The notes under the pieces: model-generated | What the model was told of the DNA's origin: nothing | Seen by the model: the letters and a program-made list of their open reading frames with translations, nothing else | The model's database searches: none | DNA from: a plasmid | Sequence record: NZ_CP039562.1 | Length of the DNA: 64,000 nt | Strand: one strand, 5' to 3' | Position numbers and translations under genes: made by a program | Shown: piece by piece, positions 15,290-56,447 of the stretch | Layout: each line of letters starts with the position of its first letter | Numbering within the stretch: position 1 is the stretch's first letter

Positions 15290-15344
15290 CAGCGCCAGAT
15301 GTTCAAACCATGTTTTATAGCAACACCTCTTTGGGGGCGGAATT

Positions 15345-16169: not shown

Positions 16170-16173
16170 TCTG

Positions 16174-16473: not shown

Positions 16474-16563
16474 TTTTGGTATTCTGATTTAAAACTATTG
16501 TAGCTCAGGTATCAAAAGAACTTGGGTAATTAAAGATAAGGGGCCGACGGCCCCTTAATTGTT

Positions 16564-17052: not shown

Positions 17053-17066
17053 ACTTAATTCCTCTA

Positions 17067-19259: not shown

Positions 19260-19492
19260 TAAGCAGCTCCTCTCATCTTTGATTCCAGATTCGCCAGCTC
19301 AGTCCAGCTTTGAGCCAGACCTTTGACTTCGGGGTAGTCTCTGGAGAGGTTTTCGAGGACTCCAGAAATGACATAGGCCGCTTCGCTGGAATTACCCCTC
19401 GAACCGGCCTCCTGGAGCATGATTAATAAAGCGTCGAAGAGCTCAGCCTTACGGCCTAGCTCTGTCTGGTTTCTTATTTCAGAGCTTTGCAT
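19259..19492 (-). CDS. Hypothetical small protein (77 aa)
   Basis: ORF only. Confidence 0.25.
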   Translation of the reverse strand: MQSSEIRNQTELGRKAELFDALLIMLQEAGSRGNSSEAAYVISGVLENLSRDYPEVKGLAQSWTELANLESKMRGAA

Positions 19493-20091
19493 GGGTTCAC
19501 CACTGAATAGGGACGCACGGACTCGCGCACAATGCGGCGATCTGCGTCAGTTACAGCCTGACTGGTGCAAAAGTGCGTCCAGGCATTCAGATAATCTTTA
19601 TAGGTGTGGGTAGGTGGTATGCAGCCGGTTACAACGTCCTTGGGGATGTTTGTGGTTCCCTCGGCTTCCACAAAGCGCCAATCGTGCTCGTCCATACCTT
19701 TGCCACCATCGCAATAGCGTTCCCAGCGTGACAACTCGTACAGCGAGTAGCCTTTGCCTTTATTCATGGACTTGAAGGTATTGATGGCTTCGTTGACATC
19801 CCCGTGCTGTTTGATCCCTGCTGGAGTTTTATCTGAACCAGCGGAGTCATCTTTGACCTTGTTCATCGTTGCGCTGACATTACCGTCGCCCAGCACATGG
19901 ATATAACCAGGTTGACGTAATGCAGCACCACCGCGCCCCATGTTGTCCCATGCCATCGACAGTTCCCGGCTAACTCGGGCAGGTTTGTCATTTTCGGCAG
20001 GGGCAGTCTGGGGCTGAGGCTTTTGCTCGGGGGCGTTAGAGGCACACCCGGCCAGAATTGCCACTCCCAGAATTGCTATCAGTTGTCTCAT
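19474..20091 (-). CDS. Lipoprotein (lipobox LAGC)
   Basis: MRQLIAILGVAILAGCAS signal and lipobox, with a GAGGAA RBS. The start is taken at the internal Met. Confidence 0.5.
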   Translation of the reverse strand: MRQLIAILGVAILAGCASNAPEQKPQPQTAPAENDKPARVSRELSMAWDNMGRGGAALRQPGYIHVLGDGNVSATMNKVKDDSAGSDKTPAGIKQHGDVNEAINTFKSMNKGKGYSLYELSRWERYCDGGKGMDEHDWRFVEAEGTTNIPKDVVTGCIPPTHTYKDYLNAWTHFCTSQAVTDADRRIVRESVRPYSVVNPCKALK

Positions 20092-28624: not shown

Positions 28625-28906
28625 ATGAAGCCTGTAAAGATACCGCGCCGGGTCGATGAGCCCCCGCATCTGCTGTTGTGGAGCGCAGATGAGTTGGCCC
28701 CGATGCTTTTGGGGCTAACGATAGGGGTCATCATCGGTAAGGCTCTGATCTGCTTTCTGGGGGGGTTACTTGTAACCAACCTTTATCGCCGATTCAGGGA
28801 TAACCATCCGGATGGATACCTGCTCCACATGATCTACTGGGCCGGGTTCATCATGACCAAGGCCAAATCTCTCAAGAACCCGTTTGTCCGGAGGTATTTG
28901 CCTTGA
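28625..28906 (+). CDS. traL: TraL-like pilus assembly protein (93 aa)
   Basis: A small membrane protein preceding traE, as in the SXT/IncC traLEKBVA order. Confidence 0.55.
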   Translation: MKPVKIPRRVDEPPHLLLWSADELAPMLLGLTIGVIIGKALICFLGGLLVTNLYRRFRDNHPDGYLLHMIYWAGFIMTKAKSLKNPFVRRYLP

Positions 28907-29294
28907 ACCTGAAAAAGTATCTCAAGACCTGGGAAGGGACCCAAACAGAAAATAAGTGGGGGCGAATCTTCCAGGGTGGTCTTATTGCTATCGTTTTCCT
29001 GCTGGTGGTCCAAGTATTCAGCAAGGAAACCATCGTCACTATCCAGCCTTTCACGCTCACGGAAGAAGCCTGGGTGACGAAAAGTAACGCCTCTCAGTCC
29101 TATAAAGAGGCTTGGGGTTTCGCTTTTGCTCAGCTCCTTGGCAATGTGACGCCAGGAACCGTTGACTTTGTGAAAGAACGGATCACCCCGCTTCTCTCCC
29201 CGAGCATCTATCAGGACGTGATTGATGCCATCGAAATTCAAGCTCAACAGATCAAGAACGACCGCGTAACCATGCGGTTTGAGCCGCGTTTTGT
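28903..29294 (+). pseudogene. traE: traE (pilus assembly) 5' portion, 3' end removed by IS26 insertion
   Basis: TraE-like single-TM protein MNLKKYLKTWEGTQTENKWGRIFQGGLIAIVFLLVV.... The reading frame runs directly into the IS26 left IR at 29295. Confidence 0.6.
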
Positions 29295-30114
29295 GGCACT
29301 GTTGCAAATAGTCGGTGGTGATAAACTTATCATCCCCTTTTGCTGATGGAGCTGCACATGAACCCATTCAAAGGCCGGCATTTTCAGCGTGACATCATTC
29401 TGTGGGCCGTACGCTGGTACTGCAAATACGGCATCAGTTACCGTGAGCTGCAGGAGATGCTGGCTGAACGCGGAGTGAATGTCGATCACTCCACGATTTA
29501 CCGCTGGGTTCAGCGTTATGCGCCTGAAATGGAAAAACGGCTGCGCTGGTACTGGCGTAACCCTTCCGATCTTTGCCCGTGGCACATGGATGAAACCTAC
29601 GTGAAGGTCAATGGCCGCTGGGCGTATCTGTACCGGGCCGTCGACAGCCGGGGCCGCACTGTCGATTTTTATCTCTCCTCCCGTCGTAACAGCAAAGCTG
29701 CATACCGGTTTCTGGGTAAAATCCTCAACAACGTGAAGAAGTGGCAGATCCCACGATTCATCAACACGGATAAAGCGCCCGCCTATGGTCGCGCGCTTGC
29801 TCTGCTCAAACGCGAAGGCCGGTGCCCGTCTGACGTTGAACACCGACAGATTAAGTACCGGAACAACGTGATTGAATGCGATCATGGCAAACTGAAACGG
29901 ATAATCAACGCCACGCTGGGATTTAAATCCATGAAGACGGCTTACGCCACCATCAAAGGTATTGAGGTGATGCGTGCACTACGCAAAGGCCAGGCCTCAG
30001 CATTTTATTATGGTGATCCCCTGGGCGAAATGCGCCTGGTAAGCAGAGTTTTTGAAATGTAAGGCCTTTGAATAAGACAAAAGGCTGCCTCATCGCTAAC
30101 TTTGCAACAGTGCC
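29295..30114 (+). mobile_element. IS26: IS26 copy 1 (820 bp; tnp26 29358-30062; N184 variant)
   Basis: Terminal IRs GGCACTGTTGCAAA at both ends and a 234-aa Tnp26 ([31 protein letters not shown]...). The flanks are cgttttgt and ccacctgc. Confidence 0.95.
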
Positions 30115-31021
30115 CCACCTGCAGCGCGTTATAATGCATCACATTTTCTGCAGAAAGTGGCATAAGAAGATAGTCCGTATGCCTGTTGACATGCTCGAGC
30201 ATTTCAAACGGGCGCATGTGACGCGGGATTAGATCCGGCGCTCTGGCAATAAGATGAAGGAGATGCTGCTTTTCACGAACTTTCTGTTCACGGATGGAAG
30301 GGCAATACATGGCCAGCATCAGCGTCGATGACAGGGGCAGATAGATTTGTATGCCGGGCACGGCTAGGCCGATATTACCGTACACACCGAAGTCATTGCG
30401 GTTCTCCAGTACCACCGGATTGTCTGACACATAGAACGGATGTTCTGGCCTGGTTTCCAGGAGGTACCAGTCCTTACTTAGCAGGTGTTTAATATGCGAC
30501 ACCTGTTGGACAAGCTGCCGCAGAAAAATGTCTCTGGTATCGCCCCCGGGCGATAAACCCAGAGTTTCTCCTGCCTGCTCCTCAGTCACGCCCATTGCCG
30601 CCAGCTTATCAGTCAGCACCGAAATCATGCCTGAGATACGTTCCAGCTCACCGAAGGTACGTGCGCGCTGCACGGCAACAAACACGGCCAGCTTGTAGCG
30701 GTCATCTTCAGTCAGCCGGCGAATGTCCTTATGCTCCAGTAGGCCGGCAATGACCGGTGCCGCGTCATGTTCGTAAATCCCCAACAACGGTTCAAGACTG
30801 AATCGTTGAGGGTGATTATCGAAGTTGTAGAACGTATTCCGGACGGTGGCGTCATCCGGCGTGGTGGCATAAGCACGCCCGGCAGCCTTATCAAAGGCGT
30901 GTAAACGCTGGCGTTTTCCCTTTACCGGCTTGCTGAAGTGCTTCAGTAAAAAACGGGGGACTGTGTGCTGCCTGACAACGTCGGTCCGCAGGTTTAATGG
31001 TTCGGTCATGGAAATTATCAT
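30115..31021 (-). pseudogene. DUF4238-family (Rst_DUF4238-like) gene, 5' portion (302 codons); 3' end at 56333-56447
   Basis: The N-terminal motif RQHTVPRFLLKHFS resembles the DUF4238 signature. The frame is broken by IS26 after ...MHYNALQV. Confidence 0.5.
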
Positions 31022-31311
31022 CCTTGATGGACTGGTACTGTAGATTCACCGTGGACCAGCGAATCTATTATGTGGTGAGCAGAACATTAACACATCAATG
31101 TAACGCCGTAATCATTGAGTCTTTGCCGGGGACGCTTGACATCTCCGAAAGAATTATATCGTGAGTCTTAAGGGGAATCTCTTGCTTCCGGTTATACATT
31201 TAACCGGATCTAGCTATAAGACTGTTACATCTATTGGGATTAGGTCAGGACAGATAGCCTGAAAGCTTTTATAGTGAGGGACTTCAGAAATACCCTAGAA
31301 AAGGAACTGTT

Positions 31312-33987
31312 ATGGTAGGTTCGCGCTGGTATAAATTTGATTTTCATAACCATACTCCGGCTTCGCATGATTACAAAATTCCTGACATCAGCCCCAGAGA
31401 GTGGCTTCTGGCTTATATGAAACAGCATGTCGATTGTGTTGTAATCAGCGATCATAACAGCGGAGCCTGGGTCGACGTGTTGAAGGGTGAGCTGGAGAAT
31501 ATGTCCCGGGACGCCAGCACCGGCGACCTGCCGGAATTTCGGCCACTGACACTCTTTCCGGGGGTTGAACTGACAGCGACCGGTAACGTACATATTCTGG
31601 CTGTGCTGCACACGCACAGTACAAGTGCCGATGTGGAAAGGCTTCTGGCCCAGTGCAATAATAATAGCCCCATTCCGAGTGAAGTCCCTAACCATCAGCT
31701 CGTTCTTCAACTGGGCCCCGCCGGCATCATCAGTAATATCCGCCGTAATCCGAAGGCTGTTTGTATTCTTGCGCACATTGATGCAGCCAAAGGTGTCTTA
31801 AGTCTGACTAATCAGGCAGAGCTCACCGCAGCCTTTCAGGAAAGTCCCCATGCCGTTGAGATTCGACACCGGGTGGAGGATATCACCGACGGAACCCGCC
31901 GGCGGCTGATTGATAATTTACCGTGGCTACGGGGCTCTGATGCGCACCATCCTGAACAAGCCGGCATGCGAACCTGCTGGCTGAAAATGTCATCCCCTGA
32001 TTTTGACGGACTCAGGCATGCACTGCTCGATCCGGAAAACTGTGTGCTGTTTGATCAGCTCCCTCCGGAGGAACCTGCGTCATATTTGCGCAGCCTGAAA
32101 TTCAGAACCCGCCACTGCCATCCTGTGGGTCAGGATTCGGCCTCGGTGGAATTCAGCCCGTTCTATAACGCTGTAATCGGCTCAAGAGGCAGCGGGAAGT
32201 CCACGCTCATTGAAAGCATTCGTCTTGCAATGCGCAAAACAGAAGGTCTCACTGCGACCCAGGGGAGTAAGCTGGACCAGTTCATTCGGACGGGGATGGA
32301 AGCGGATTCCTTCATCGAATGTATTTTCCACAAAGAAGGCACAGATTTCCGGCTCAGTTGGCGACCAGACAGTAAGCATGAATTACATATCTTCAGTGAC
32401 GGAGAATGGATGCCTGACAGTCACTGGTCGGCTGACCGTTTTCCACTCTCGATTTACAGCCAGAAAATGCTCTATGAGCTGGCTTCGGATACTGGTGCAT
32501 TCCTGCGCGTCTGTGATGAGAGCCCGGTGGTTAACAAACGGGCCTGGAAAGAGCGCTGGGATCAGCTGGAAAGGGAATATCTGAATGAACAAATCACGTT
32601 GCGGGGCCTGCGTGCCAGACAGGGAAGTGCGGATTCGCTGCGGGGGGAATTATCGGATGCTGAACGTGCCGTCAGTCAGCTGCAGTCAAGCGCCTATTAT
32701 CCGGTTTGCAGACAGCTGGCCCTCGCCAGAAACGAGCTGTCCGCAGCAACCTTACCCCTGGAGCACTTTGAGCGGCGTATTGCAGCCATTCAGGCTCTGG
32801 CAGAAGAACCGCTGCAGAGATCCGATATCCCGCCGGAACCTTCCGGTCTGCTGATGGCATTTATGGCGCGCCTGTCATCTGTGCAACAGCAGTATGACCA
32901 GCGGCTCAATACTCTCCTGGCAGAATATGCTGCAGAGCTCGCGGGTATCAGGAGAGAGCAATCTTTTATTGCCCTCCGAACAGCAGTGAGTGACCAGGAA
33001 ACAAATGTAGAAAGTGAAGCTGTTTCCCTGCGGGCCAGAGGGCTTAATCCCGATGTTCTCAACGAACTGATGGCACGCTGTGAGTCACTGAAAAATGAGC
33101 TGAGAAATTACGACGGTCTTGATGGGGCGATCTCTGCCTCTGTTGCACGGTCTGAGCAGTTGCTGGCTGAAATGCGTGCCCACAGAATGGCATTGACAGA
33201 TAACCGGAAGGCGTTTCTCTCCTCCCTGTCGCTCAGCGCTCTGGAAATCAAAATTCTTCCCCTCTGCGCCCCTTATGAAGATGTTATATCTGGTTACCAG
33301 ACGGTTACCGGCATCAGTAATTTTGCCGAACGTATCTACGATAACAGTGACGGGAGCGGATTACTGAGCGACTTTATCAGTGAACGTCCGTTCAGCCCGT
33401 TGCCTGCCGCAACAGAGAAAAAATACAGGGCGCTGGACGAGCTGAAAGCGCTGCATCACAGCATCCGGCTGGATAATTCAGAGGCTGGGGCGGGGCTTCA
33501 TGGTTCTTTCCGGAATCGTCTCAGGAGTCTGAATGACCAGCAGCTGGATGCCCTGCAATGCTGGTATCCTGATGACGGCATCCACATACGTTACCAGACC
33601 CCCGGGGGGCAGATGGAAGACATTGCCTTTGCTTCTCCGGGGCAAAAGGGAGCGAGTATGCTGCAGTTCCTCTTATCCTATGGCACCGATCCTCTACTAC
33701 TGGATCAACCGGAGGATGACCTGGACTGCCTGATGCTGAGCATGAGCGTGATCCCTGCCATCATGTCGAACAAGAAACGCCGGCAGCTGATTATCGTGTC
33801 GCACTCTGCCCCTATAGTGGTTAACGGCGATGCAGAATATGTTATCAGTATGCAGCACGATCGCACAGGCCTGTATCCAGGACTCTGCGGTGCACTGCAG
33901 GAAGCTCCGATGAAGGCACTGATATGCCGTCAAATGGAGGGGGGAGAAAAAGCGTTTCGTTCGCGCTATGAGCGTATTCTTAGCTGA
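31312..33987 (+). CDS. Ppl-like defence protein: N-terminal PHP phosphoesterase domain fused to an SMC/RecF-like ABC ATPase with a coiled-coil insert (891 aa)
   Basis: PHP motifs YKFDFHNHTPASHDY and VISDHNS. Walker A is GSRGSGKST (aa 289-297). The C-terminus has a signature-like SPGQKG, Walker B/D-loop LLLDQPEDDLD and an H-loop IIVSHS. Confidence 0.6.
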   Translation: MVGSRWYKFDFHNHTPASHDYKIPDISPREWLLAYMKQHVDCVVISDHNSGAWVDVLKGELENMSRDASTGDLPEFRPLTLFPGVELTATGNVHILAVLHTHSTSADVERLLAQCNNNSPIPSEVPNHQLVLQLGPAGIISNIRRNPKAVCILAHIDAAKGVLSLTNQAELTAAFQESPHAVEIRHRVEDITDGTRRRLIDNLPWLRGSDAHHPEQAGMRTCWLKMSSPDFDGLRHALLDPENCVLFDQLPPEEPASYLRSLKFRTRHCHPVGQDSASVEFSPFYNAVIGSRGSGKSTLIESIRLAMRKTEGLTATQGSKLDQFIRTGMEADSFIECIFHKEGTDFRLSWRPDSKHELHIFSDGEWMPDSHWSADRFPLSIYSQKMLYELASDTGAFLRVCDESPVVNKRAWKERWDQLEREYLNEQITLRGLRARQGSADSLRGELSDAERAVSQLQSSAYYPVCRQLALARNELSAATLPLEHFERRIAAIQALAEEPLQRSDIPPEPSGLLMAFMARLSSVQQQYDQRLNTLLAEYAAELAGIRREQSFIALRTAVSDQETNVESEAVSLRARGLNPDVLNELMARCESLKNELRNYDGLDGAISASVARSEQLLAEMRAHRMALTDNRKAFLSSLSLSALEIKILPLCAPYEDVISGYQTVTGISNFAERIYDNSDGSGLLSDFISERPFSPLPAATEKKYRALDELKALHHSIRLDNSEAGAGLHGSFRNRLRSLNDQQLDALQCWYPDDGIHIRYQTPGGQMEDIAFASPGQKGASMLQFLLSYGTDPLLLDQPEDDLDCLMLSMSVIPAIMSNKKRRQLIIVSHSAPIVVNGDAEYVISMQHDRTGLYPGLCGALQEAPMKALICRQMEGGEKAFRSRYERILS

Positions 33988-34497
33988 AGAACGGAACCGT
34001 CCTTAAGGCGGCCACGACCGGAGAGTGGGCCTGGCGGCTGAATGCCTGGATAAAAGACGCAAATGTCAGACTGATGGCCTCTGCGTCTTTGTCAGCGCCA
34101 GTGATATAAGACGGTAATGGGGATGCGGACGATTTCCTGGACTCTCAGGAGATGAAACATGTTTACTGAAAAACAAAAAATCCGCGCCATTGAGCTTTTT
34201 TGTCGGGATAAAACGGAAAGCCGCTGGCCAGCCAGCTGTTGTTTACTCGTCACGCGACAGGCAAGCCTGTTCAAAAAACAGGCTTGCCGTACAATAATTC
34301 TCTATATCCAAACTGACCCCTTATAGAGAGCCTGACAGAGGCTGCCATGATATGGGCACATCAAGAATGACAATCCACACTCGTGTTGTTCTATCTGCTC
34401 AACCAGCAAGATATCATTGCGATGACTGTCCATCAGTAAGCGTCCCGGTTCCGGGCGGTCTAGTTTTGTGCCACTGATGTTCTCCCCGCAGTGGTTT

Positions 34498-35382
34498 CTA
34501 ACCATAGTATCTGTGGTAACTTTCACGTGCTTTTTCAAAAAGTTGGCATAGTACTTTACTGTTTTTTTGAGTCCAACTTTTTAATACATCCAGATGAATA
34601 TAGAAAGATGTCTCATCACCTGTTGCTATCAGTACTGAAAAATTTCTCAAGGAGATTGAACATGTGAATAATACATGTCTGAATAAAATATTTTCTTCTG
34701 AATTTGCTTTATGACAAAACGCTATGACAGAACCTGGTAAAAATGTAATATTTCGCATTGTATGATTCAGATCAGATAATAATAAACTCGAAATCGGATA
34801 AATGCCGGAGTTTTCTATATATCCCCTTCCATGCAATTCAAAATCATATGGTATATATTTATCTTTAGTTTCCATATATTCAACAGAGACTATTTTTGAA
34901 GGTGGGATGACCCCATTAAAGATATACCAGGTATCTTCTTTTGTGTTACCTTTTCGCATAATTTTACTTATCTGCTCATCGGTCATCCCCCTTGCCCCCT
35001 CAACCCCCATTGCACCTACGTACTTAACATAAGCTTTAGGTTGTCCAAGGTCACGCATTAGCTTTTTATATGAGCAAAATCCAGGCTGCTTTTTTATCCA
35101 TTCAGTATCTATTTTTAACCTTATTAACTTTTTATTATGTGTTCCATTTATAGACGTAGACTCAGATATATTACCGACTCTTCGCATAAATGATTTTTCT
35201 GATTCACTTAATTTTTCAGTACCGTTACATAATCCGTGACCATATGGTAATGGAGATGTCGTTAACCATACTTTATTATACAAAATTGTTCCATCATACA
35301 ACGTTAGATATCCTTCTCTCAGGCCTTCAGATGCAAGTATGGAATGCAACATAGGAATTGCTGTAAAGTGATATAAATCCAT
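34498..35382 (-). CDS. Unrecognised low-GC protein (294 aa), with possible ART-like N-terminal motif LYHFT
   Basis: Clean ORF with ~33% GC amid ~50% GC surroundings. Its start is 36 bp from the Tn1721 IR. Confidence 0.4.
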   Translation of the reverse strand: MDLYHFTAIPMLHSILASEGLREGYLTLYDGTILYNKVWLTTSPLPYGHGLCNGTEKLSESEKSFMRRVGNISESTSINGTHNKKLIRLKIDTEWIKKQPGFCSYKKLMRDLGQPKAYVKYVGAMGVEGARGMTDEQISKIMRKGNTKEDTWYIFNGVIPPSKIVSVEYMETKDKYIPYDFELHGRGYIENSGIYPISSLLLSDLNHTMRNITFLPGSVIAFCHKANSEENILFRHVLFTCSISLRNFSVLIATGDETSFYIHLDVLKSWTQKNSKVLCQLFEKARESYHRYYG

Positions 35383-35417
35383 AAATAACCCTATTCTGTC
35401 TATTTATATTCATTTTA

Positions 35418-35455
35418 GGGGAGCCCGCAGAATTCGGAAAAAATCGTACGCTAAG
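35418..35455. repeat. Tn1721/Tn1722 38-bp terminal inverted repeat
   Basis: GGGGAGCCCGCAGAATTCGGAAAAAATCGTACGCTAAG. The tnpA stop lies inside the IR. Confidence 0.85.
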
Positions 35456-36967
35456 GTTTTCCGGGCATCCGTAAGGGCCGAAACTTCCCGTCTTCCAGTC
35501 TGCGGCTCTGCCGCCAGACGTAATCGCCGGTTAGGTTGATGTGCTCCCAGCCCAGCGGCGACAGGAATTGCAGCAGCTCGCCGTCCACCGGCTTGCCGGC
35601 CTCGACCAACCCCTGGGTGGCGCGTTCCAGGTACACCGTGTTCCACAGCACGATAGCCGCCGTCACCAGGTTGAGGCCGCTGGCCCGGTAGCGCTGCTGC
35701 TCGAAGCTCCGATCCCTGATTTCCCCAAGGCGGTTGAAGAACACCGCCCTGGCCAGCGAGTTGCGCGCCTCACCTTTGTTCAGGCCGGCATGCACGCGGC
35801 GGCGCAGTTCAACACTTTGCAGCCAGTCCAGGATGAACAGCGTGCGCTCGATCCGGCCCAGCTCGCGCAGGGCCACGGCCAGTCCGTTCTGGCGCGGGTA
35901 GCTGCCGAGCTTGCGCAGCATCAGCGAGGCGGTGACGGTGCCCTGCTTGATCGAGCTGGCCAGGCGCAGGATGTCGTCCCAGTGGGCACGCACGTGCTTG
36001 ATGTTCAGGGTGCCGCCGATCAGCGGGCGCAACGTCGGGTAGGCTTGCACGCCCTGCGGCACGTACAGCTTGGTTTCGCCGAGGTCGCGGATGCGCGGCG
36101 CGAAGCGGAAGCCTAGCAGGTGCATCAGGGCAAAGACGTGATCGGTGAAGCCGGCCGTGTCGGTGTAGTGCTCCTCGATCCGCAGGTCGGACTCGTGGTA
36201 CAGCAGGCCGTCGAGCACATAGGTGGAATCGCGGACGCCGACATTCACCACGCGGGTGCTGAACGGCGCGTACTGGTCGGAGATATGGGTATAGAACAGC
36301 CGTCCCGGCTCGCTACCGTACTTCGGGTTGACGTGCCCGGTGCTCTCGCCCCGGCCACCCGCGCGGAAGCGCTGGCCATCGGAGGATGAGGTCGTGCCGT
36401 CGCCCCAGTGGGCGGCAAAGGCGTGGCGATACTGGTGGTTGACCAGCTCGGCCAAGGCCGCCGAATAGGTTTCGTCGCGGATGTGCCAGGCTTGCAGCCA
36501 GGACAGCTTGGCGTAGGTCAGGCCGGGGCTCGACTCGGCCATCTTGGTCAGCCCGAGGTTGATCGCATCACCGAGGATTGCGGACAGCAGCAACGTCCTG
36601 TCTTTGGCCTCGGCCCCGTCCTTCAAGTGGGTGAAGTGGCGGCTGAAGCCCGTCCAGTCGTCCACGTCCATCAGCAGTTCGGTGATCTTGATGCGCGGCA
36701 GTAACTGGCTGGTTTGGTCGATCAGCGCCTGCGCCCGATCCGGCACCGCCGCATCCAGCGGGGTGATTTTCAGCCCTGACTCGGTGAGGATGGCATCGGG
36801 CAGCTCGTTGTCCTTGGCCAGGCGGGTGACGGTGGCCAACTGCTCGTCCAGCAGCTGCAAACGCTCTTCCAGGTACTGGTCGCTGTTCGGGTTGATCGCC
36901 AGGGGCAGGGCCTGCTCGCGCTTGAGTGCGGCGAACTTCTCGGCCGGCAGCAGGTAGTCGTCGAAGT
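35451..36967 (-). pseudogene. tnpA: Tn1721-like Tn3-family transposase tnpA, 3' ~505 codons, 5' end removed by IS26
   Basis: Tn3-family TnpA C-terminal region (DDE region ...[31 protein letters not shown]...) ending in the Tn1721 IR. The N-terminal extension of the ORF is IS26 read-through. Confidence 0.8.
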
Positions 36968-37787
36968 GGCACTGTTGCAAATAGTCGGTGGTGATAAACT
37001 TATCATCCCCTTTTGCTGATGGAGCTGCACATGAACCCATTCAAAGGCCGGCATTTTCAGCGTGACATCATTCTGTGGGCCGTACGCTGGTACTGCAAAT
37101 ACGGCATCAGTTACCGTGAGCTGCAGGAGATGCTGGCTGAACGCGGAGTGAATGTCGATCACTCCACGATTTACCGCTGGGTTCAGCGTTATGCGCCTGA
37201 AATGGAAAAACGGCTGCGCTGGTACTGGCGTAACCCTTCCGATCTTTGCCCGTGGCACATGGATGAAACCTACGTGAAGGTCAATGGCCGCTGGGCGTAT
37301 CTGTACCGGGCCGTCGACAGCCGGGGCCGCACTGTCGATTTTTATCTCTCCTCCCGTCGTAACAGCAAAGCTGCATACCGGTTTCTGGGTAAAATCCTCA
37401 ACAACGTGAAGAAGTGGCAGATCCCGCGATTCATCAACACGGATAAAGCGCCCGCCAATGGTCGCGCGCTTGCTCTGCTCAAACGCGAAGGCCGGTGCCC
37501 GTCTGACGTTGAACACCGACAGATTAAGTACCGGAACAACGTGATTGAATGCGATCATGGCAAACTGAAACGGATAATCGGCGCCACGCTGGGATTTAAA
37601 TCCATGAAGACGGCTTACGCCACCATCAAAGGTATTGAGGTGATGCGTGCACTACGCAAAGGCCAGGCCTCAGCATTTTATTATGGTGATCCCCTGGGCG
37701 AAATGCGCCTGGTAAGCAGAGTTTTTGAAATGTAAGGCCTTTGAATAAGACAAAAGGCTGCCTCATCGCTAACTTTGCAACAGTGCC
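36968..37787 (+). mobile_element. IS26: IS26 copy 2 (tnp26 37031-37735), sequence variant Y143N / G184
   Basis: Same IRs as the other copies. Tnp differs from the other six at codon 143 (AAT Asn vs TAT Tyr) and codon 184 (GGC Gly vs AAC Asn), plus one silent change. Confidence 0.9.
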
Positions 37788-37878
37788 TTCTGAAACGAAA
37801 TTACAGATTACGGTTAAAATATAAAAAAAAGCCACCAATCCTGCCGGATACGGTGGCTTAAATACAGAATTAATTAAT

Positions 37879-38520
37879 TTATTTCAGTATGTTATCACAC
37901 ATCAGCTGAAGTGTATTGATAAACCTTGCTGCATGAAAACCATCACAGACTGCATGATGAACCTGTACAGAAACAGGTAATAGTACGCGGTCACCTTCCT
38001 GCTGAAACTTTGCCATTGTAAAAACCGGGGAAAAATAATCATCATTTCCGGTGATATTCAGATTAAATCCGTCAAAACTCACCCAGGGTAACGATGATAT
38101 ATTCAGGTGATTCTCCGGTAAATTTCCCTGCGGAAACAACCTGGTATCATGCTGATATTCTGCTGTTACCGCGTTATAACCCGCCATAAACTCACTGAGA
38201 TCCGGAAAATAACGGCAGGACAGTGCGGAGAATGTTTCGGTTTCTTTATGAAAGACAGTAAAGACCGGGTCTGACTGTTCCCAGTAAATCAGTTCATTAT
38301 CTTTCATTGCCATCCGGAACTCCGGAAACTGATTAACAGCCCGGGAGATCAGGTAAATCATCAGCGGATAAAACTTATAACCGGTTTTCGCCAGTGCAGT
38401 ACGCAAAGCGGTAATATCGAGTTTGGTGGTCAGGCTGAATCCGCATTTAATCTGCTGACGATAAAGGGCAAAATGTTCCCTGCGATTCCAGGTATTCAGG
38501 TCAATCCGGGTAAAATTCAT
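37879..38520 (-). CDS. catA2: Chloramphenicol acetyltransferase CatA2 (type II)
   Basis: MNFTRIDLNTWNRREHFALYRQQIKCGFSLTTKLDITALRTALA... with the HHAVCDGFH active-site region. It matches CatA2 from memory. Confidence 0.9.
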   Translation of the reverse strand: MNFTRIDLNTWNRREHFALYRQQIKCGFSLTTKLDITALRTALAKTGYKFYPLMIYLISRAVNQFPEFRMAMKDNELIYWEQSDPVFTVFHKETETFSALSCRYFPDLSEFMAGYNAVTAEYQHDTRLFPQGNLPENHLNISSLPWVSFDGFNLNITGNDDYFSPVFTMAKFQQEGDRVLLPVSVQVHHAVCDGFHAARFINTLQLMCDNILK

Positions 38521-38552
38521 GGTTATTCCTTCTGATTAATAGTGAAAAATAT

Positions 38553-39372
38553 GGCACTGTTGCAAATAGTCGGTGGTGATAAACTTATCATCCCCTTTTG
38601 CTGATGGAGCTGCACATGAACCCATTCAAAGGCCGGCATTTTCAGCGTGACATCATTCTGTGGGCCGTACGCTGGTACTGCAAATACGGCATCAGTTACC
38701 GTGAGCTGCAGGAGATGCTGGCTGAACGCGGAGTGAATGTCGATCACTCCACGATTTACCGCTGGGTTCAGCGTTATGCGCCTGAAATGGAAAAACGGCT
38801 GCGCTGGTACTGGCGTAACCCTTCCGATCTTTGCCCGTGGCACATGGATGAAACCTACGTGAAGGTCAATGGCCGCTGGGCGTATCTGTACCGGGCCGTC
38901 GACAGCCGGGGCCGCACTGTCGATTTTTATCTCTCCTCCCGTCGTAACAGCAAAGCTGCATACCGGTTTCTGGGTAAAATCCTCAACAACGTGAAGAAGT
39001 GGCAGATCCCACGATTCATCAACACGGATAAAGCGCCCGCCTATGGTCGCGCGCTTGCTCTGCTCAAACGCGAAGGCCGGTGCCCGTCTGACGTTGAACA
39101 CCGACAGATTAAGTACCGGAACAACGTGATTGAATGCGATCATGGCAAACTGAAACGGATAATCAACGCCACGCTGGGATTTAAATCCATGAAGACGGCT
39201 TACGCCACCATCAAAGGTATTGAGGTGATGCGTGCACTACGCAAAGGCCAGGCCTCAGCATTTTATTATGGTGATCCCCTGGGCGAAATGCGCCTGGTAA
39301 GCAGAGTTTTTGAAATGTAAGGCCTTTGAATAAGACAAAAGGCTGCCTCATCGCTAACTTTGCAACAGTGCC
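38553..39372 (+). mobile_element. IS26: IS26 copy 3 (tnp26 38616-39320; N184)
   Basis: IRs and an identical Tnp. It lies 32 bp upstream of the catA2 start. Confidence 0.95.
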
Positions 39373-40793
<1,421 letters not shown>

Positions 40794-40797
40794 TAGC

Positions 40798-40828
40798 GGA
40801 AACGGAATGGGGAAACTCATTCCGTTTT
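40798..40828 (+). terminator. Rho-independent terminator after blaCTX-M
   Basis: GAAACGGAATG-GGGAAACT-CATTCCGTTTTTG. Confidence 0.7.
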
Positions 40829-40851
40829 TGTTTATCGCCTTAGACGGCAAA

Positions 40852-40980
40852 AGTGCTGTCGCCCACCTGCGCTTGCGCATACCAGGCCATAAGCTCCGTG
40901 GTTCCTGGTTCTCCTTCCGCTGGAGCCCAGTGCGCATAGTCATCGGCAGCCACGGGTTGATAGCCACCGTGTTTTACTTC
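40852..40980 (-). pseudogene. wbuC: orf477/wbuC (cupin) 3' fragment, separated from its 5' part (47362-47553) by IS26 inversion
   Basis: When joined to 47362-47553 across one copy of the 8-bp TSD, it continues in frame (...GGIIF|EVKHGGYQPVAADDYAHW...AV*) to a stop. Confidence 0.6.
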
Positions 40981-40988
40981 AAAAATTA

Positions 40989-44557: not shown

Positions 44558-47338
44558 CAACGTTTTCTGCCTCTGACGCCTCTTTTAATGGTCTCAGATG
44601 TCCTTTGGTCACCAGTTCTGCCAGCGTGAAGGAATAATGGCCGAGCATATTGATATGTCCGTGGCAAAGCGGGGAGAGGCGTGCGATATCTTCATCATTC
44701 AGTGTTTCACCCTGCGCCCGGAGATGATCCAGGGCTGCCTGCATATAAATAGTGTTCCATAACACGACGGCGTTAGTGACCAGCCCCAGTGTGCCCAGTT
44801 GATCTTCCTGACCGTCGGTATATCGTTTTCTTATCTCACCTTTTTGACCGTGACAGATGGCTCTGGCAACGGCATGGCGACTTTCTCCCCGATTAAGCTG
44901 GGTCAGAATGCGCCGGCGGTAATCTTCATCATCAATATAATTAAGCAGATACAGCGTTTTGTTGATGCGCCCCACTTCAATGATTGCCTGAGTCAGTCCG
45001 GAAGGACGTTCACTTTTCAGCAATGAACGGACCAGCACTGAAACCTGTACTTTGCCCAGCTTCAGGGAGCCAGCGGTCCGGATCATTTCGTCCCACTGAA
45101 GGACTATTTTTCGGGGATCTGATTGCCCTCTGGCAATATCATTCAGCACGCCATAGTCGGCATCATGGTCCATTCGCCAGAAAACCGAAGCACCGGCATC
45201 AGCCAGGCGTGGAGAAAACTGGTATCCCAGCAGCCAGAAAAGGCCAAAGACAAGTTCGCTGGCACCTGCTGTATCGGTCATAATTTCGGTTGGATTCAGC
45301 CCGGTCTCCTGTTCCAGAAGACCTTCCAGCACAAAGATAGAGTCCCTCAGCGTCCCCGGTATAACGATGCCATGAAAGCCGGAATACTGATCGGACACAA
45401 AGTTGTACCAGGTGATCCCTCTGTTATTACCAAAGTATTTGCGGTTCGGTCCGGCATTGATTGTTCTGACTGGCGTAACAAAGCGCATTCCATCTGCAGA
45501 TGCCACTTCTCCTCCACCCCATATCTGTGCCAGTGGCAGCGTTGCCTGAAAATCAACCAGTCTGGCATTAGCGCTGGTGATAGTTTCAGCCCGCAGATAG
45601 TTCGCTTTTGTCCAGTTCAGCCGGTGTCGGGTCAGTGCAGGAACATTTGATCTGATCAGTGGTTCCAGACCGATATTGCAGGCTTCAGCCATCAGCACGG
45701 CGCTGATGCTGACGGGCAGATCATCAACTCTGGCACTGGCTTCACTAGCATGGAAAAACTCATCAGCAAATCCGGTATGGGCGTTAATTTCGAGCAGCAA
45801 CTCCGTTAAATCCACCGGAGGGAGTAGATCACTGATCATTTTGCTCAGTCGTTTCAGACTGTCCGGCTCATCAAGACTGGCGAGGGGAGAAATTGTCAAC
45901 CGGGGCTTCGGGCCAGAAACATCGAGTTCGACAGCCTCATTTTCGCAAAGACGTGCAGCAACCTGTCTGTAACGACTATCAAGCTGATGACCCAGAGATT
46001 TTATTGCTTCCTGCGGGTCTGTCGGGTGCCCCAAAGAACGATAAACCTTAATCCGGTTTGCCTGCCAGTCAGCACCCTGTAGTAATCTTGCACGAGGATC
46101 TCCCCACCGGTTACTGCCGGTAACGTAGACATCCCTCCGCCTCAGACTATCCTGCAGTTTACTGAGAAAGCAGAGCGTGTATCCCCTGCGGGTGATATGT
46201 TTTTCCTTGTTAATCACCAGCCGTTTCCATGACCGACTGATAATTTCCGTTGGTGCGTCGTCAAAAAACTGCCGCCGTGAGCTGAACTCCCGGCTGAGGT
46301 AGTCACAGGCATTCAGAGTGGTAACCCCGGCAGGTGCGGATGAAAATTTAACGGTATTCAGCAGATGGGGCAGGAAACGACGAACGCGCCCGTACTGCTC
46401 CACCATTTCTTCATGAAAATTATCGTCTGAGGGCCGGGCAATTTCACGGACAAGCGTGATGATTTCAGCCAGCTTTTGCCTTGGGATGTAGCTGAACACC
46501 TCAGCACGAATCGATTCGTCCGGTGTTTCTTCTTTCAGCAGGTACGAACATGCGCTGGCGAGCGCCAATGCAGATTTATCCAGATCCTTCAGCGAGCGGA
46601 GCCGTTTTTTCTGCCCAATCTTTCTGGCGTCACGGATGATAACGGCCAGCATGGCGTCCAGAACGTCCAATGCATCATCCAGCGCCAGCGTTTCCCATGC
46701 AAGGACAAAGGCAACCAGAACCGCCATCCTTTTCTGCGGTGACATCCTGGCAATATTGAACACCGAAGTCATACCAGCATAACGTGCGAGATTTTTCAGG
46801 CGCACAGCCGGGAGTGTACTCAGGTTTTCAGCATGCAGGCCAAAATCGTTCAGAGTTTTCCAGCGTTCAATTGCTTCATTAAACGCCGGACCACTGATGG
46901 TCACAGGGCCCTTTTTCAGTGATTCCAGTAAAGACAGGCGGCTGCAATCAGTTGGCCCCAGCAGCATCTCCAGCTGTGAACGCTGTTCGGCTGACGGTAT
47001 CAGTGCCAGTTTGTTCCACAGGCGCAACGTCGCCTTTTCCCTTACCTCTGAAATCAACCGGGTCAGCGTAGTGGCTCCGGGGAGAATAATACGATGTTGC
47101 ATAAGCCACCCTGTCGCCAGATCGAAAAGCAGGCCAGGACGTTCGTTGCTTATCCAGCTCCGGGTATATAAAAGACGGGTAAGGCGAAATGTCCAGGGCC
47201 AGGCAAATTCACGATACTGATAGTGCTGACGTATCAGCGCTGCATGCTCACGGCGGGTATTTTCCCTCTGACCGTATTCTGCAAGAACGGTGATATCACG
47301 AATCCCGAGCTGTCTGGCGGTAAAATGCCGGACGCCGG
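44553..47338 (-). pseudogene. tnpA: Tn2/Tn3 transposase tnpA lacking its first ~70 codons
   Basis: Near-identical over most of its length to the Tn3 TnpA sequence from memory (MQHRIILPGATTLTRLISEVREKATLRLWNK... to ...EASEAENVA). Homology breaks near 47338 at the orf477 junction, the typical ISEcp1-blaCTX-M-orf477 insertion site. Confidence 0.85.
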
Positions 47339-47361
47339 AAGGAATATGACCTGGGACCTAC

Positions 47362-47553
47362 GTGCGCCCGCACCGACACCCTCACACCTTCGAGCTACTG
47401 TTGCCATTAAGGGGTCGTTTCGTGGTGCTGAATTTTGACGATCGGGGTACCGTCACCCATCGGGCGATATTGGGGGAAACCTGTACGGTGCTGGAGATGG
47501 CCGCAGGAACCTGGCATGCCGTGCTGTCGCTGGATACCGGTGGCATAATTTTT
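47362..47553 (+). pseudogene. wbuC: orf477/wbuC cupin gene 5' fragment
   Basis: MRPHRHPHTFELLLPLRGRFVVLNFDDRGTVTHRAIL... is a cupin HxH motif. It runs into the IS26 copy 5 left IR. Confidence 0.6.
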
Positions 47554-48373
47554 GGCACTGTTGCAAATAGTCGGTGGTGATAAACTTATCATCCCCTTTT
47601 GCTGATGGAGCTGCACATGAACCCATTCAAAGGCCGGCATTTTCAGCGTGACATCATTCTGTGGGCCGTACGCTGGTACTGCAAATACGGCATCAGTTAC
47701 CGTGAGCTGCAGGAGATGCTGGCTGAACGCGGAGTGAATGTCGATCACTCCACGATTTACCGCTGGGTTCAGCGTTATGCGCCTGAAATGGAAAAACGGC
47801 TGCGCTGGTACTGGCGTAACCCTTCCGATCTTTGCCCGTGGCACATGGATGAAACCTACGTGAAGGTCAATGGCCGCTGGGCGTATCTGTACCGGGCCGT
47901 CGACAGCCGGGGCCGCACTGTCGATTTTTATCTCTCCTCCCGTCGTAACAGCAAAGCTGCATACCGGTTTCTGGGTAAAATCCTCAACAACGTGAAGAAG
48001 TGGCAGATCCCACGATTCATCAACACGGATAAAGCGCCCGCCTATGGTCGCGCGCTTGCTCTGCTCAAACGCGAAGGCCGGTGCCCGTCTGACGTTGAAC
48101 ACCGACAGATTAAGTACCGGAACAACGTGATTGAATGCGATCATGGCAAACTGAAACGGATAATCAACGCCACGCTGGGATTTAAATCCATGAAGACGGC
48201 TTACGCCACCATCAAAGGTATTGAGGTGATGCGTGCACTACGCAAAGGCCAGGCCTCAGCATTTTATTATGGTGATCCCCTGGGCGAAATGCGCCTGGTA
48301 AGCAGAGTTTTTGAAATGTAAGGCCTTTGAATAAGACAAAAGGCTGCCTCATCGCTAACTTTGCAACAGTGCC
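47554..48373 (+). mobile_element. IS26: IS26 copy 5 (tnp26 47617-48321; N184)
   Basis: IRs. The left flank is taattttt. Confidence 0.95.
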
Positions 48374-49879: not shown

Positions 49880-50085
49880 CGCGATATCTCCTCTAAACTG
49901 CAAAACACTATACGCTGATGAATCCCCTAATGATTTTGGTAAAAATCATTAAGTTAAGGTGGATACACATCTTGTCATATGATCAAATGGTTTCGCGAAA
50001 AATCAATAATCAGACAACAAGATGTGCGAACTCGATATTTTACACGACTCTCTTTACCAATTCTGCCCCGAATTACACTTAAAAC

Positions 50086-55512: not shown

Positions 55513-56332
55513 GGCACTGTTGCAAAGTTAGCGATGAGGCAGCCTTTTGTCTTATTCAAAGGCCTTACATTTCAAAAACTCTGCTTACCAGGCGCATTTC
55601 GCCCAGGGGATCACCATAATAAAATGCTGAGGCCTGGCCTTTGCGTAGTGCACGCATCACCTCAATACCTTTGATGGTGGCGTAAGCCGTCTTCATGGAT
55701 TTAAATCCCAGCGTGGCGTTGATTATCCGTTTCAGTTTGCCATGATCGCATTCAATCACGTTGTTCCGGTACTTAATCTGTCGGTGTTCAACGTCAGACG
55801 GGCACCGGCCTTCGCGTTTGAGCAGAGCAAGCGCGCGACCATAGGCGGGCGCTTTATCCGTGTTGATGAATCGTGGGATCTGCCACTTCTTCACGTTGTT
55901 GAGGATTTTACCCAGAAACCGGTATGCAGCTTTGCTGTTACGACGGGAGGAGAGATAAAAATCGACAGTGCGGCCCCGGCTGTCGACGGCCCGGTACAGA
56001 TACGCCCAGCGGCCATTGACCTTCACGTAGGTTTCATCCATGTGCCACGGGCAAAGATCGGAAGGGTTACGCCAGTACCAGCGCAGCCGTTTTTCCATTT
56101 CAGGCGCATAACGCTGAACCCAGCGGTAAATCGTGGAGTGATCGACATTCACTCCGCGTTCAGCCAGCATCTCCTGCAGCTCACGGTAACTGATGCCGTA
56201 TTTGCAGTACCAGCGTACGGCCCACAGAATGATGTCACGCTGAAAATGCCGGCCTTTGAATGGGTTCATGTGCAGCTCCATCAGCAAAAGGGGATGATAA
56301 GTTTATCACCACCGACTATTTGCAACAGTGCC
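55513..56332 (-). mobile_element. IS26: IS26 copy 7 (tnp26 55565-56269, minus strand; N184)
   Basis: IRs. The right flank gcaggtgg is the reverse complement of the copy 1 right flank ccacctgc. Confidence 0.95.
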
Positions 56333-56447
56333 GCAGGTGGAGTATGCTGAACAGTACGTGTTCTGCGGTGAAAACGATTTTTCTCTGGCTGAAAGAATGC
56401 TGGCTGCAGATGACCGTTACCGGACCGGGCCGCGGTTTACATTTTAG
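56333..56447 (+). pseudogene. DUF4238-family gene 3' fragment (37 codons + stop)
   Basis: Joining rc(30115-31021) to 56341 onward across one TSD copy gives ...NALQVEYAEQYVFCGENDFSLAERMLAADDRYRTGPRFTF*, in frame. Confidence 0.55.

What the first reader, a model, noticed from the sequence alone, without database searches (positions are those of the whole stretch)
31312..33987. Ppl-like PHP-phosphoesterase + SMC/ABC-ATPase single-gene defence candidate carried inside an IS26-bounded resistance region
The 891-aa protein fuses a PHP domain (YKFDFHNHTPASHDY, VISDHNS, HILAVLH) to an ABC/SMC-type ATPase.
- Walker A GSRGSGKST is at aa 289-297, followed by a ~400-aa coiled-coil-like insert.
- The C-terminus has signature-like SPGQKG, Walker B/D-loop PLLLDQPEDDLD and an H-loop.
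- This PHP + SMC-like ATPase architecture is what I recall for the single-gene Ppl anti-phage system of Gao et al. 2020.

It sits next to a DUF4238 gene and an unrecognised low-GC gene, inside an MDR region otherwise made only of resistance genes and IS remnants. Phage-defence genes therefore travel on this resistance plasmid.

The upstream intergenic region (31022-31311) carries a plausible sigma70 promoter (TTGACA at ~31135) and an imperfect palindrome CCGGTTATACATTTAACCGG (~31180-31199) that could be an operator.
Basis: partly seen in the sequence, partly recalled or inferred. Interest (0 to 1): 0.7.

Follow-up and report, generated by a model that had tools for sequence, protein, structure and literature searches.

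The report
Known Ppl anti-phage gene on plasmid

Summary
The 891-aa ORF at 31312-33987 (+) is real and is Ppl. It matches the PADLOC Ppl model end to end (1826 bits) and the NCBIfam equivalog 'anti-phage protein Ppl' (1330 bits, cut-off 1000). The identical protein is RefSeq WP_015059139.1, already named Ppl, and is seen on at least 1000 contigs. ppl occurs in 339 PLSDB plasmids and 118 of 5426 complete E. coli genomes, almost always on plasmids.

All nine PHP metal ligands and all ABC-ATPase motifs are invariant across the family. A confident model shows a PHP domain fused to a Rad50/SMC-like head with a helical hairpin. The mechanism is published (Xu et al., Mol Cell 2026): a 3'-5' ssDNA exonuclease, held off by NTPs, activated by NTP depletion plus 3'-OH DNA ends. 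Plasmid (IncF) carriage of ppl is also published.

New details are minor:
- The module is IncFII-derived DNA inside an IncC plasmid.
- The DUF4238 neighbour was split by an IS26 inversion.
- The low-GC neighbour is an uncharacterised ADP-ribosyltransferase-fold protein.

Verdict: already known, low interest.

The parts
31312..33987 (+). ppl coding sequence (891 aa plus stop); identical to RefSeq WP_015059139.1 'anti-phage protein Ppl'
31312..32061 (+). PHP phosphoesterase/exonuclease domain (aa 1-250); invariant metal ligands H12, H14, D20, H48, E86, H94, H155, D210, H212
32080..32526 (+). ABC-ATPase N-lobe (aa 257-405); Walker A GSRGSGKST at aa 290-298 (nt 32179-32205), Q-loop Q384
32536..33225 (+). 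long helical hairpin (coiled-coil-like) insert, aa 409-638; no CxxC zinc hook at its tip
   Evidence: sequence read
33577..33984 (+). ABC-ATPase C-lobe (aa 756-891): signature SPGQKG at 775-780, Walker B/D-loop PLLLDQPEDDLD at 794-805 (D798, invariant Q799, E801, D805), H-loop H831
31247..31275 (+). best promoter candidate AGGACA-17-TATAGT; the -10 hexamer (31270-31275) and its flanks (CTTTATAGT(A)G) are the only upstream element conserved in the Yersinia, Escherichia sp. and Pantoea homologue loci; an AAGGA ribosome-binding site lies at about 31301-31305
30115..31009 (-). 5' part (298 codons) of the DUF4238 gene; the reading frame runs on into IS26, which adds a 35-residue foreign tail (annotated CDS 30008-31009)
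56333..56447 (+). displaced 3' end of the same DUF4238 gene (encodes QVEYAEQYVFC...GPRFTF*), 26 kb away, beginning with the inverted 8-bp target duplication GCAGGTGG
29295..30114 (+). IS26 copy that cuts IncC traE on its left and DUF4238 on its right (right flank CCACCTGC)
55513..56332 (-). IS26 copy in the opposite orientation, partner of the inversion that split DUF4238 (flank GCAGGTGG)
36968..37787 (+). IS26 copy bounding the module on the right; truncates the TnAs1-like tnpA; its transposase differs from the other six copies (N143, G184)
34159..34326 (+). 55-codon ORF annotated as a hypothetical protein (WP_001430249.1) downstream of ppl
34333..34502 (-). resolvase pseudogene fragment (coordinates transferred from the annotation of CP085624)
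34498..35382 (-). low-GC 294-aa orphan gene (WP_001345827.1) whose product is predicted to have an ADP-ribosyltransferase fold (Tpt1/DarT-like)
35451..36965 (-). 5'-truncated Tn3-family (TnAs1-like) transposase pseudogene

Best explanation
The ORF is an intact copy of ppl, a single-gene anti-phage system. One polypeptide joins an N-terminal PHP metal-dependent nuclease to a Rad50/SMC-like ABC NTPase whose two lobes are separated by a helical hairpin.

The published model (Xu et al., Mol Cell 2026, read here only through citing papers) is as follows:
- Ppl is a 3'-5' single-stranded-DNA exonuclease.
- Cellular NTPs bound at both the PHP and the NTPase domains keep it inactive.
- Phage infection drains the nucleotide pool, and phage homing endonucleases create DNA ends with 3'-OH overhangs.
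- The two signals together switch the nuclease on, and it degrades the DNA and stops infection.

Shown here: family membership, intactness, conservation of every catalytic residue, the fold, single-gene organisation, and an unaltered upstream region compared with IncFII plasmids.

Inferred: that the gene is expressed from the conserved TATAGT promoter and is active in this host.

The gene got here as part of an IncFII (pHN7A8/F33-like) plasmid segment. IS26 fused that segment into traE of an IncC plasmid and then inverted parts of it, so ppl is co-transferred and co-selected with mcr-3.1, blaCTX-M-55, catA2 and aac(3)-IId.
For: Family membership:
- PADLOC Ppl PDLC02208: 1826 bits over residues 1-891 of 891.
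- NCBIfam NF042955 Ppl_antiphage equivalog: 1330 bits against a cut-off of 1000. The next family, TrlF, scores 477 bits; Rad50, RecF and RecN models score below 30 bits.
- The exact sequence is named 'MULTISPECIES: anti-phage protein Ppl' and is on at least 1000 contigs. RefSeq annotates it as ppl in every plasmid inspected.

Catalytic residues and fold:
- Across 27 family members at 29-85% identity, H12, H14, D20, H48, E86, H94, H155, D210, H212, K296, Q384, S775/G777/Q778, D798, D805 and H831 are invariant.
- The AlphaFold model has pLDDT 89.1 with the stated domain order.
- Foldseek finds SMC, Rad50, JetC, RecN and LmuB heads at E down to 1e-11.
- A profile of the N-terminal domain hits PHP-family structures 2anu, 9etk, 7ug9 and 3e0f.

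Single-gene organisation: no conserved neighbour in four chromosomal homologue loci.

Mechanism and phenotype from the literature:
- Review PMC12904381; citations of Xu et al. 2026.
- ppl restricts T7 and is countered by Bas63 gp130 (PMC11482910).

Context: 99.96-99.98% identity to IncFII plasmid CP085624 on both sides of an 8-bp inverted duplication; IncC backbone and interrupted traE.
Against: - I could not read Xu et al. 2026 or Gao et al. 2020. The mechanism therefore rests on second-hand summaries, and I could not confirm that the allele tested experimentally is identical to this one.
- The Pfam PHP model does not hit this sequence directly.
- The residue after the Walker B aspartate is an invariant Gln (Q799), not the usual catalytic Glu, so the ATPase may bind rather than hydrolyse NTP. 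That fits a sensor role but was not tested here.
- Near-100% identity over hundreds of plasmids reflects recent spread. It is not evidence of selection for function in this host.
- Expression was not shown.
Confidence: 0.9

Rival explanations
1. ppl here is a silent or irrelevant passenger. It was carried in with the IncFII fragment, and it is either not expressed or gives no benefit in this Salmonella/IncC setting.
For: - The gene arrived as part of a large block moved by IS26 along with resistance genes.
- The sequence is essentially clonal (233 plasmids at 99% identity or more), so conservation says nothing about selection.
- The neighbouring DUF4238 gene has been broken without apparent consequence.
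Against: - The ORF is intact and every catalytic residue is retained.
- The upstream 300 nt are unchanged from the IncFII source and contain a -10 element conserved in distant homologues.
- In some other plasmids ppl is visibly disrupted (an IS150 insertion, 5' truncations), which shows that loss does happen but has not happened here.
Confidence: 0.12
2. DUF4238, ppl and the 294-aa gene work together as one multi-gene defence system rather than as independent genes.
For: - The three genes travel together in at least 200 plasmids.
- DUF4238 and ppl are divergently transcribed from one 300-nt intergenic region.
Against: - None of four full-length chromosomal Ppl homologue loci has a DUF4238 or 294-aa homologue within 6 kb.
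- A DUF4238 protein alone protects against T7 (PMC9122126), and ppl is used as a single-gene construct.
- The 294-aa gene has a very different GC content, is separated from ppl by a resolvase remnant, and its homologues sit in unrelated plasmid contexts.
- DUF4238 is truncated here while ppl is intact.
Confidence: 0.04
3. The protein is a housekeeping DNA-repair ATPase of the SbcC/Rad50/RecN type, or a plasmid-maintenance SMC, rather than an immune protein.
For: The closest solved structures by sequence and fold are Rad50 and SMC heads, and Pfam SMC_N gives a weak hit.
Against: - Rad50, RecF and RecN NCBIfam models score 15-29 bits against cut-offs of 172-1000, whereas the Ppl model scores 1330.
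- There is no Mre11/SbcD partner; the nuclease is fused as a PHP domain.
- In E. coli the gene is accessory: 2% of genomes, and 124 of 127 copies are on plasmids.
- Anti-phage activity is reported in the literature.
Confidence: 0.02

Closest known systems
Ppl (Gao_Ppl; NCBIfam NF042955; PADLOC PDLC02208), single-gene anti-phage system of Gao et al. 2020, mechanism in Xu et al. 2026
   Same: Full-length member, and identical to the RefSeq protein already named Ppl. It shares the PHP plus ABC-NTPase architecture, all the catalytic residues and the single-gene organisation.
   Different: Nothing detectable. I could not confirm whether the experimentally tested allele is this exact sequence.
TrlF family AAA-like ATPases (NCBIfam NF045780; trlF of the Photorhabdus temperature-restriction locus)
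   Same: Same architecture and about 30% identity end to end. The PHP ligands and ABC motifs are shared.
   Different: This is a sister family. The window protein scores 477 bits on the TrlF model against 1330 on the Ppl model. TrlF is encoded in an operon with trlG and trlR, whereas ppl stands alone.
Rad50-Mre11 / SbcCD and SMC-like defence ATPases (Wadjet JetC, Lamassu LmuB)
   Same: ABC head split by a coiled coil and coupled to a nuclease that acts at DNA ends. These are the best fold matches.
   Different: The nuclease is a fused PHP domain, not a separate Mre11/SbcD, JetD or LmuA subunit. The hairpin is short (about 230 aa) and has no zinc hook. Gln replaces the Walker B catalytic Glu.
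OLD-family / Gabija GajA, PARIS AriA and Septu PtuA ATPase-nucleases
   Same: Weak ABC-ATPase similarity. Inhibition of an anti-phage nuclease by NTPs is a shared theme in the literature.
   Different: Their nuclease domain (Toprim or HNH) and partners are different, and the matches cover the P-loop and C-lobe only.
Plasmid-borne defence islands on resistance plasmids (ARG and defence-system co-localisation)
   Same: A defence gene is physically linked to resistance genes on a conjugative plasmid. ppl is reported as mostly IncF-associated in Salmonella (PMC11305592), and general co-localisation is documented (bioRxiv 10.1101/2025.07.25.666796).
   Different: Here the IncF-derived ppl segment has been moved into an IncC plasmid by IS26. 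That is a particular instance, not a new principle.

Membership tests
Ppl (anti-phage protein Ppl) | Full-length match to the curated family model above its cut-off | tested here: met
   NCBIfam NF042955 equivalog 1330 bits (cut-off 1000), residues 3-889. PADLOC PDLC02208 1826 bits, residues 1-891.
Ppl (anti-phage protein Ppl) | N-terminal PHP domain with a complete metal-binding site | tested here: met
   H12, H14, D20, H48, E86, H94, H155, D210 and H212 are invariant in 27 sequences. The profile hits PHP structures.
Ppl (anti-phage protein Ppl) | C-terminal ABC/SMC-like NTPase with Walker A, Q-loop, signature, Walker B, D-loop and H-loop | tested here: met
   K296, Q384, S775/G777/Q778, D798, D805 and H831 are invariant. 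SMC/Rad50 fold matches.
Ppl (anti-phage protein Ppl) | Acts as a single gene, with no conserved partner | tested here: met
   The neighbours differ in all four full-length homologue loci L003-L006. The literature uses a single-gene construct.
Ppl (anti-phage protein Ppl) | Confers phage resistance; NTP-inhibited 3'-5' ssDNA exonuclease activity | not testable with these tools
   Literature only. The primary papers are not held.
PHP superfamily (Pfam PF02811) | Significant match to the Pfam PHP model | tested here: not met
   No PF02811 hit for this sequence at E up to 0.01. Only 1 of 27 family members hits PHP and 6 of 27 hit PHP_C. Membership rests instead on the profile-to-PDB hits, the NCBIfam CehA/McbA metallohydrolase hit at E 3.9e-7 and the nine metal ligands.
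Rad50/SMC-type ABC ATPases | Catalytic Glu immediately after the Walker B Asp; zinc hook or hinge at the coiled-coil tip | tested here: not met
   The motif is LLLDQPEDDLD with an invariant Q799. There is no CxxC in the 455-520 tip region (sequence; model).
Rst_DUF4238 single-gene defence (Rousset et al. 2022), for the neighbour at 30115-31009 | Intact protein with a DUF4238 domain (PF14022) | tested here: inconclusive
   The domain is present at 131 bits, but IS26 has replaced the last 35 residues with foreign sequence. There is no PADLOC hit, and the DefenseFinder model is not available here.
DarT / Tpt1 ADP-ribosyltransferase-fold enzymes, for the neighbour at 34498-35382 | ART fold | tested here: met
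   [not shown]
DarT / Tpt1 ADP-ribosyltransferase-fold enzymes, for the neighbour at 34498-35382 | Sequence-level family membership, and for DarT an adjacent DarG macrodomain antitoxin | tested here: not met
   No Pfam, PHROG, PADLOC or NCBIfam hit. No PDB profile hit at E up to 10. No macrodomain gene next to the homologues or here.

The most novel reading that the evidence does not exclude
The part not yet described is the 294-aa low-GC neighbour (34498-35382, minus strand). It belongs to a small, unannotated, plasmid-restricted family with a confident ADP-ribosyltransferase fold closest to Tpt1 and DarT. Its invariant motifs are YHxT, W-TTSPLPYGHGL, TWY and PYDFExHGR. It could be a new NAD-dependent nucleic-acid-modifying effector that plasmids carry for defence or counter-defence, so that the IncFII module would be a three-gene immune island (DUF4238, Ppl, ART) spreading with resistance genes. 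For Ppl itself, the only open point is whether the invariant Gln after Walker B makes the ABC domain a non-hydrolysing NTP sensor.
Probability: 0.2. Interest if true: 0.5.

Novelty: already known. Interest (0 to 1): 0.12.

Why it matters
Practically, it is one more documented case of a phage-defence gene physically linked to clinically important resistance genes (mcr-3.1, blaCTX-M-55) on a conjugative plasmid. Antibiotic use can therefore co-select phage resistance, and phage therapy can co-select resistance plasmids.

That principle, the plasmid (IncF) association of ppl, and the mechanism of Ppl are all already published, and annotation pipelines label this gene automatically. Nothing here opens a new question about Ppl.

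The reconstruction of how IS26 carried the gene from an IncFII into an IncC plasmid is useful only for plasmid epidemiology. The uncharacterised ART-fold neighbour is the only lead of possible wider interest.

Tried and rejected
- **Primary papers.** I tried to read Xu et al. 2026 (DOI) and Gao et al. 2020 (PMC id and DOI). Neither is held. A full-text search for WP_015059139 found nothing. So I could not confirm that the tested allele is identical to this one.
- **Solved Ppl structure.** None was found by sequence or by fold.
- **Pfam PHP.** The model does not hit this sequence. I did not treat this as refuting PHP, because the profile-to-PDB search and the ligand conservation support it.
- **TTGACA promoter and palindrome as operator.** Rejected. 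There is no correctly spaced -10, and neither element is conserved in the homologue loci.
- **DUF4238 as a partner of Ppl.** Rejected.
- **The '2-piece' matches spanning about 7.7 kb in many plasmids as a 2-kb insertion.** Rejected. They are an artefact of the IS26 end in my query matching a downstream IS26 copy.
- **Sequence-level link of the 294-aa protein to DarT or Tpt1.** Nothing was found; only the fold supports it.
Full report
**Observation**

The window has an 891-codon ORF at 31312-33987 on the plus strand, exactly as reported. The only correction is that Walker A (GSRGSGKST) spans residues 290-298, so its lysine is K296 rather than K295.

The segment lies between two IS26 copies, at 29295-30114 and 36968-37787. 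On the minus strand upstream is a gene with a strong DUF4238 match (131 bits). Downstream on the minus strand is a 294-codon ORF with a GC content of 0.33-0.37, against 0.52-0.57 for the large ORF.

**Identity**

The protein matches the PADLOC Ppl model over its whole length (1826 bits, residues 1-891). It also matches the NCBIfam equivalog NF042955 'anti-phage protein Ppl' at 1330 bits against a curated cut-off of 1000. The next family, TrlF, scores 477 bits.

The exact sequence is in the public protein collection on at least 1000 contigs, under the name 'MULTISPECIES: anti-phage protein Ppl [Enterobacteriaceae]' and as UniProt I1WZW2. RefSeq annotates it as ppl (WP_015059139.1), with the GO term 'defense response to virus', in every plasmid I inspected.

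With the gene alone as the query:
- 339 PLSDB plasmids carry it. Of these, 233 are at 99% identity or more and 298 are conjugative. By organism: E. coli 165, Klebsiella 96, Enterobacter 35, Salmonella 16.
- 118 of 5426 complete E. coli genomes carry it, and 124 of the 127 copies are on plasmids.

**Domains and catalytic residues**

I aligned 27 family members spanning 29-85% identity, including TrlF-family proteins.

The invariant columns include the full PHP metal-binding set in its canonical order H-H-D-H-E-H-H-D-H: H12, H14, D20, H48, E86, H94, H155, D210, H212. That order is from my knowledge of PolX and YcdX PHP domains.

They also include every ABC-ATPase motif:
- Walker A: K296
- Q-loop: Q384
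- signature: S775/G777/Q778
- Walker B: D798
- D-loop: D805
- H-loop: H831

The Pfam PHP model PF02811 does not hit this sequence on its own. Only 1 of the 27 members hits PHP and 6 hit PHP_C. A profile of the N-terminal 255 residues, however, finds solved PHP-family proteins by sequence:
- TM0559 (2anu), E 6e-8
- 'Metal-dependent phosphoesterases (PHP family)' (9etk), E 1.4e-6
- a 5'-3' exoribonuclease (7ug9), E 7e-6
- 3e0f, E 2e-4

An AlphaFold model built on the alignment is confident (pLDDT 89.1, pTM 0.72). Its layout is:
- an alpha/beta domain at 1-250
- an ATPase N-lobe at 257-405
- a long helical hairpin at 409-638
- a mixed region at 644-750
- the ATPase C-lobe at 756-891

Foldseek against the PDB returns SMC, Rad50, JetC, RecN, MukB and Lamassu LmuB heads with coiled coils, at E down to 1e-11. 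It returns no solved Ppl structure.

Two details differ from classical Rad50/SMC proteins. The residue after the Walker B aspartate is an invariant glutamine (LLLDQPEDDLD, Q799) where the catalytic glutamate normally sits. The hairpin tip has no CxxC zinc hook.

**How it works**

I could not obtain the primary papers, but three held papers summarise or cite the mechanism.

[quoted passage not shown] The two requirements are:
- phage-mediated nucleotide-pool depletion, which relieves inhibition by NTPs bound to both the PHP exonuclease and the NTPase domains
[quoted passage not shown] Independently, ppl restricts T7, and Bas63 gp130 counters it (PMC11482910).

The sequence features found here fit that model: a complete PHP site, a complete NTP-binding site, and a Gln at the hydrolytic position, which would suit a sensor. 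Nothing here tests it directly.

**Single gene or system?**

Four full-length chromosomal homologues, in Yersinia, Escherichia sp., Pantoea and Photobacterium (54-82% identity), have no DUF4238 or 294-aa homologue within 6 kb. Ppl therefore stands alone.

A DUF4238 protein on its own gives strong T7 resistance (PMC9122126). In its IncFII source the module is best read as two independent single-gene defences side by side.

**Upstream region**

TTGACA is at 31136-31141, but it has no -10 hexamer at 16-18 nt and was not called by the scan. The palindrome is a perfect 8-bp inverted repeat at 31187-31208.

Neither element is conserved upstream of the homologues. The one conserved element in the four Enterobacterales loci is CTTTATAGT(A)G. 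It contains the -10 hexamer of the scan's AGGACA-17-TATAGT site at 31247-31275, 37 nt before the start codon. That is the better promoter candidate. The operator idea has no support.

**Context and history**

The left part of the window is IncC backbone (parA, korB, methylases, topoisomerase III, mobH, traD, traL). It matches Salmonella plasmids p16E080 (MN647788), OQ658820 and CP101380, in which IS26 interrupts traE at the same point.

The ppl module does not belong to IncC. In IncFII plasmids such as CP085624 it sits directly next to parM-stbB, with an intact 333-aa DUF4238 gene.

Aligning that plasmid to the window gives these segments:

| CP085624 locus L002 | Window | Direction | Identity |
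|---|---|---|---|
| 1-6011 | 62340-56330 | reversed | 99.98% |
| 6001-16874 | 30115-40988 | forward | 99.96% |
| 16866-19673 | 47554-44747 | reversed | 100% |

The first two pieces overlap by 8 bp. CCACCTGC abuts the plus-oriented IS26 at 30115-30122, and its reverse complement GCAGGTGG abuts the minus-oriented IS26 at 56333-56340. This is the signature of an intramolecular replicative IS26 transposition into the DUF4238 gene that inverted the intervening DNA.

As a result, the DUF4238 reading frame here keeps 298 native codons and then runs into IS26, which adds 35 foreign residues. The true 3' end, encoding QVEYAEQYVFC...GPRFTF*, lies 26 kb away at 56333-56447. A second inverted 8-bp pair, AAAAATTA and TAATTTTT, marks another such inversion at 40989 and 47554.

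So the 'IS26-bounded resistance region' is an IS26-scrambled IncFII fragment that also contains IncFII backbone genes. It is not only resistance genes and IS remnants.

**The low-GC neighbour**

The 294-aa protein has no hit in Pfam, NCBIfam, PADLOC or PHROGs. It has only 14 homologous clusters in 5.8 billion proteins, none of them named.

- then pertussis-like, Rhs and PARP catalytic domains

Its invariant motifs are YHxT (4-7), W-TTSPLPYGHGL (39-51), TWY (151-153) and PYDFExHGR (178-186). There is no sequence-level link to any solved structure.

Homologues at 37-46% identity are all in plasmid settings, next to parA, a resolvase, IncFII repA, hipBA and PLD nuclease genes. None has a macrodomain antitoxin beside it. 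I file it as having an ART fold, not as a member of the DarT or Tpt1 families. Its function is unknown.

**Comparison with what is known, and novelty**

The gene is a member of Ppl by every feature that could be tested. It is already named in RefSeq and UniProt, detected by PADLOC and NCBIfam, and mechanistically characterised.

Its association with plasmids is also published. In 12,244 Salmonella genomes, 'ppl ... frequently associated with plasmids' and 'ppl (30%) ... mostly associated with IncF plasmids' (PMC11305592). Co-localisation of resistance genes and defence systems on E. coli plasmids has been quantified (bioRxiv 10.1101/2025.07.25.666796).

The finding is therefore correct but already known. 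The additional results here (the IncFII origin, the IS26 inversion that split DUF4238, the better promoter candidate, the ART-fold orphan) are incremental.

**Verdict**

- Observation: confirmed.
- Interpretation: supported, apart from the promoter/operator guess and the description of the surroundings.
- Novelty: already known.
- Interest: 0.12.

Noticed in passing
[not shown]
   Followed up: partly
window 30115-31009 (minus strand) and 56333-56447 (plus strand): The DUF4238 gene, a family with a reported single-gene anti-T7 member, is split in two, 26 kb apart, by an IS26 intramolecular inversion. The inverted 8-bp duplication CCACCTGC/GCAGGTGG marks the event. The annotated 333-aa product is a chimera with a 35-residue tail encoded by IS26.
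   Followed up: yes
window 40989 and 47554 (left flanks of two IS26 copies): A second reverse-complementary 8-bp pair (AAAAATTA / TAATTTTT) flanks oppositely oriented IS26 copies. It coincides with the inverted Tn3 fragment at 44747-47554, which indicates a second IS26-mediated inversion.
   Followed up: partly
window 28903-29346, with IS26 at 29295: The IncC conjugation gene traE is interrupted by IS26, and the whole IncFII/resistance mosaic is inserted there. The same junction occurs in MN647788, OQ658820 and CP101380. MOB-suite still types these plasmids as conjugative. I did not check whether the rest of traE survives elsewhere.
   Followed up: no
window IS26 copies at 29295, 38553, 40989, 47554, 50086, 55513 versus 36968: Six of the seven IS26 copies encode a transposase with Asn at position 184. 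The copy at 36968 has Gly184 and Asn143. From memory, G184N is the IS26 variant reported to have enhanced activity, which would fit the heavy rearrangement seen here. I did not verify this against the literature.
   Followed up: partly
window 33691-33726 (Ppl residues 794-805): The residue after the Walker B aspartate is an invariant Gln (Q799, motif LLLDQPEDDLD) across Ppl and TrlF proteins, in place of the catalytic Glu of most ABC ATPases. E801 is also invariant. This suggests NTP sensing with little or altered hydrolysis.
   Followed up: partly
window about 51785-53461 and 49019-49903; 39858-40793; 37879-38520: The same IS26 mosaic carries mcr-3.1 with dgkA, aac(3)-IId, blaCTX-M-55 and catA2. 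The far left of the window matches the IncC ARI-B island (floR, tet(A), strAB, sul2), judging by the matching plasmid annotation.
   Followed up: partly
window 56400-62340: This is an IncFII leading-region and stability segment (hypothetical gene, stbB, parM, a DNA methylase, an antirestriction protein, DUF1380) inside an IncC plasmid. The plasmid is therefore an IncC-IncFII hybrid, which is consistent with the MOBF plus MOBH relaxase typing of p16E080.
   Followed up: partly
E. coli plasmids NZ_JBVWFV010000003.1, NZ_OY754836.1 and CP057469.1 (hits H97, H106, H95): In some other plasmids ppl is disrupted, either by an IS150 insertion that splits it into 'Ppl' and 'PHP domain-containing protein' or by 5' truncation. 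The gene is therefore sometimes lost.
   Followed up: no
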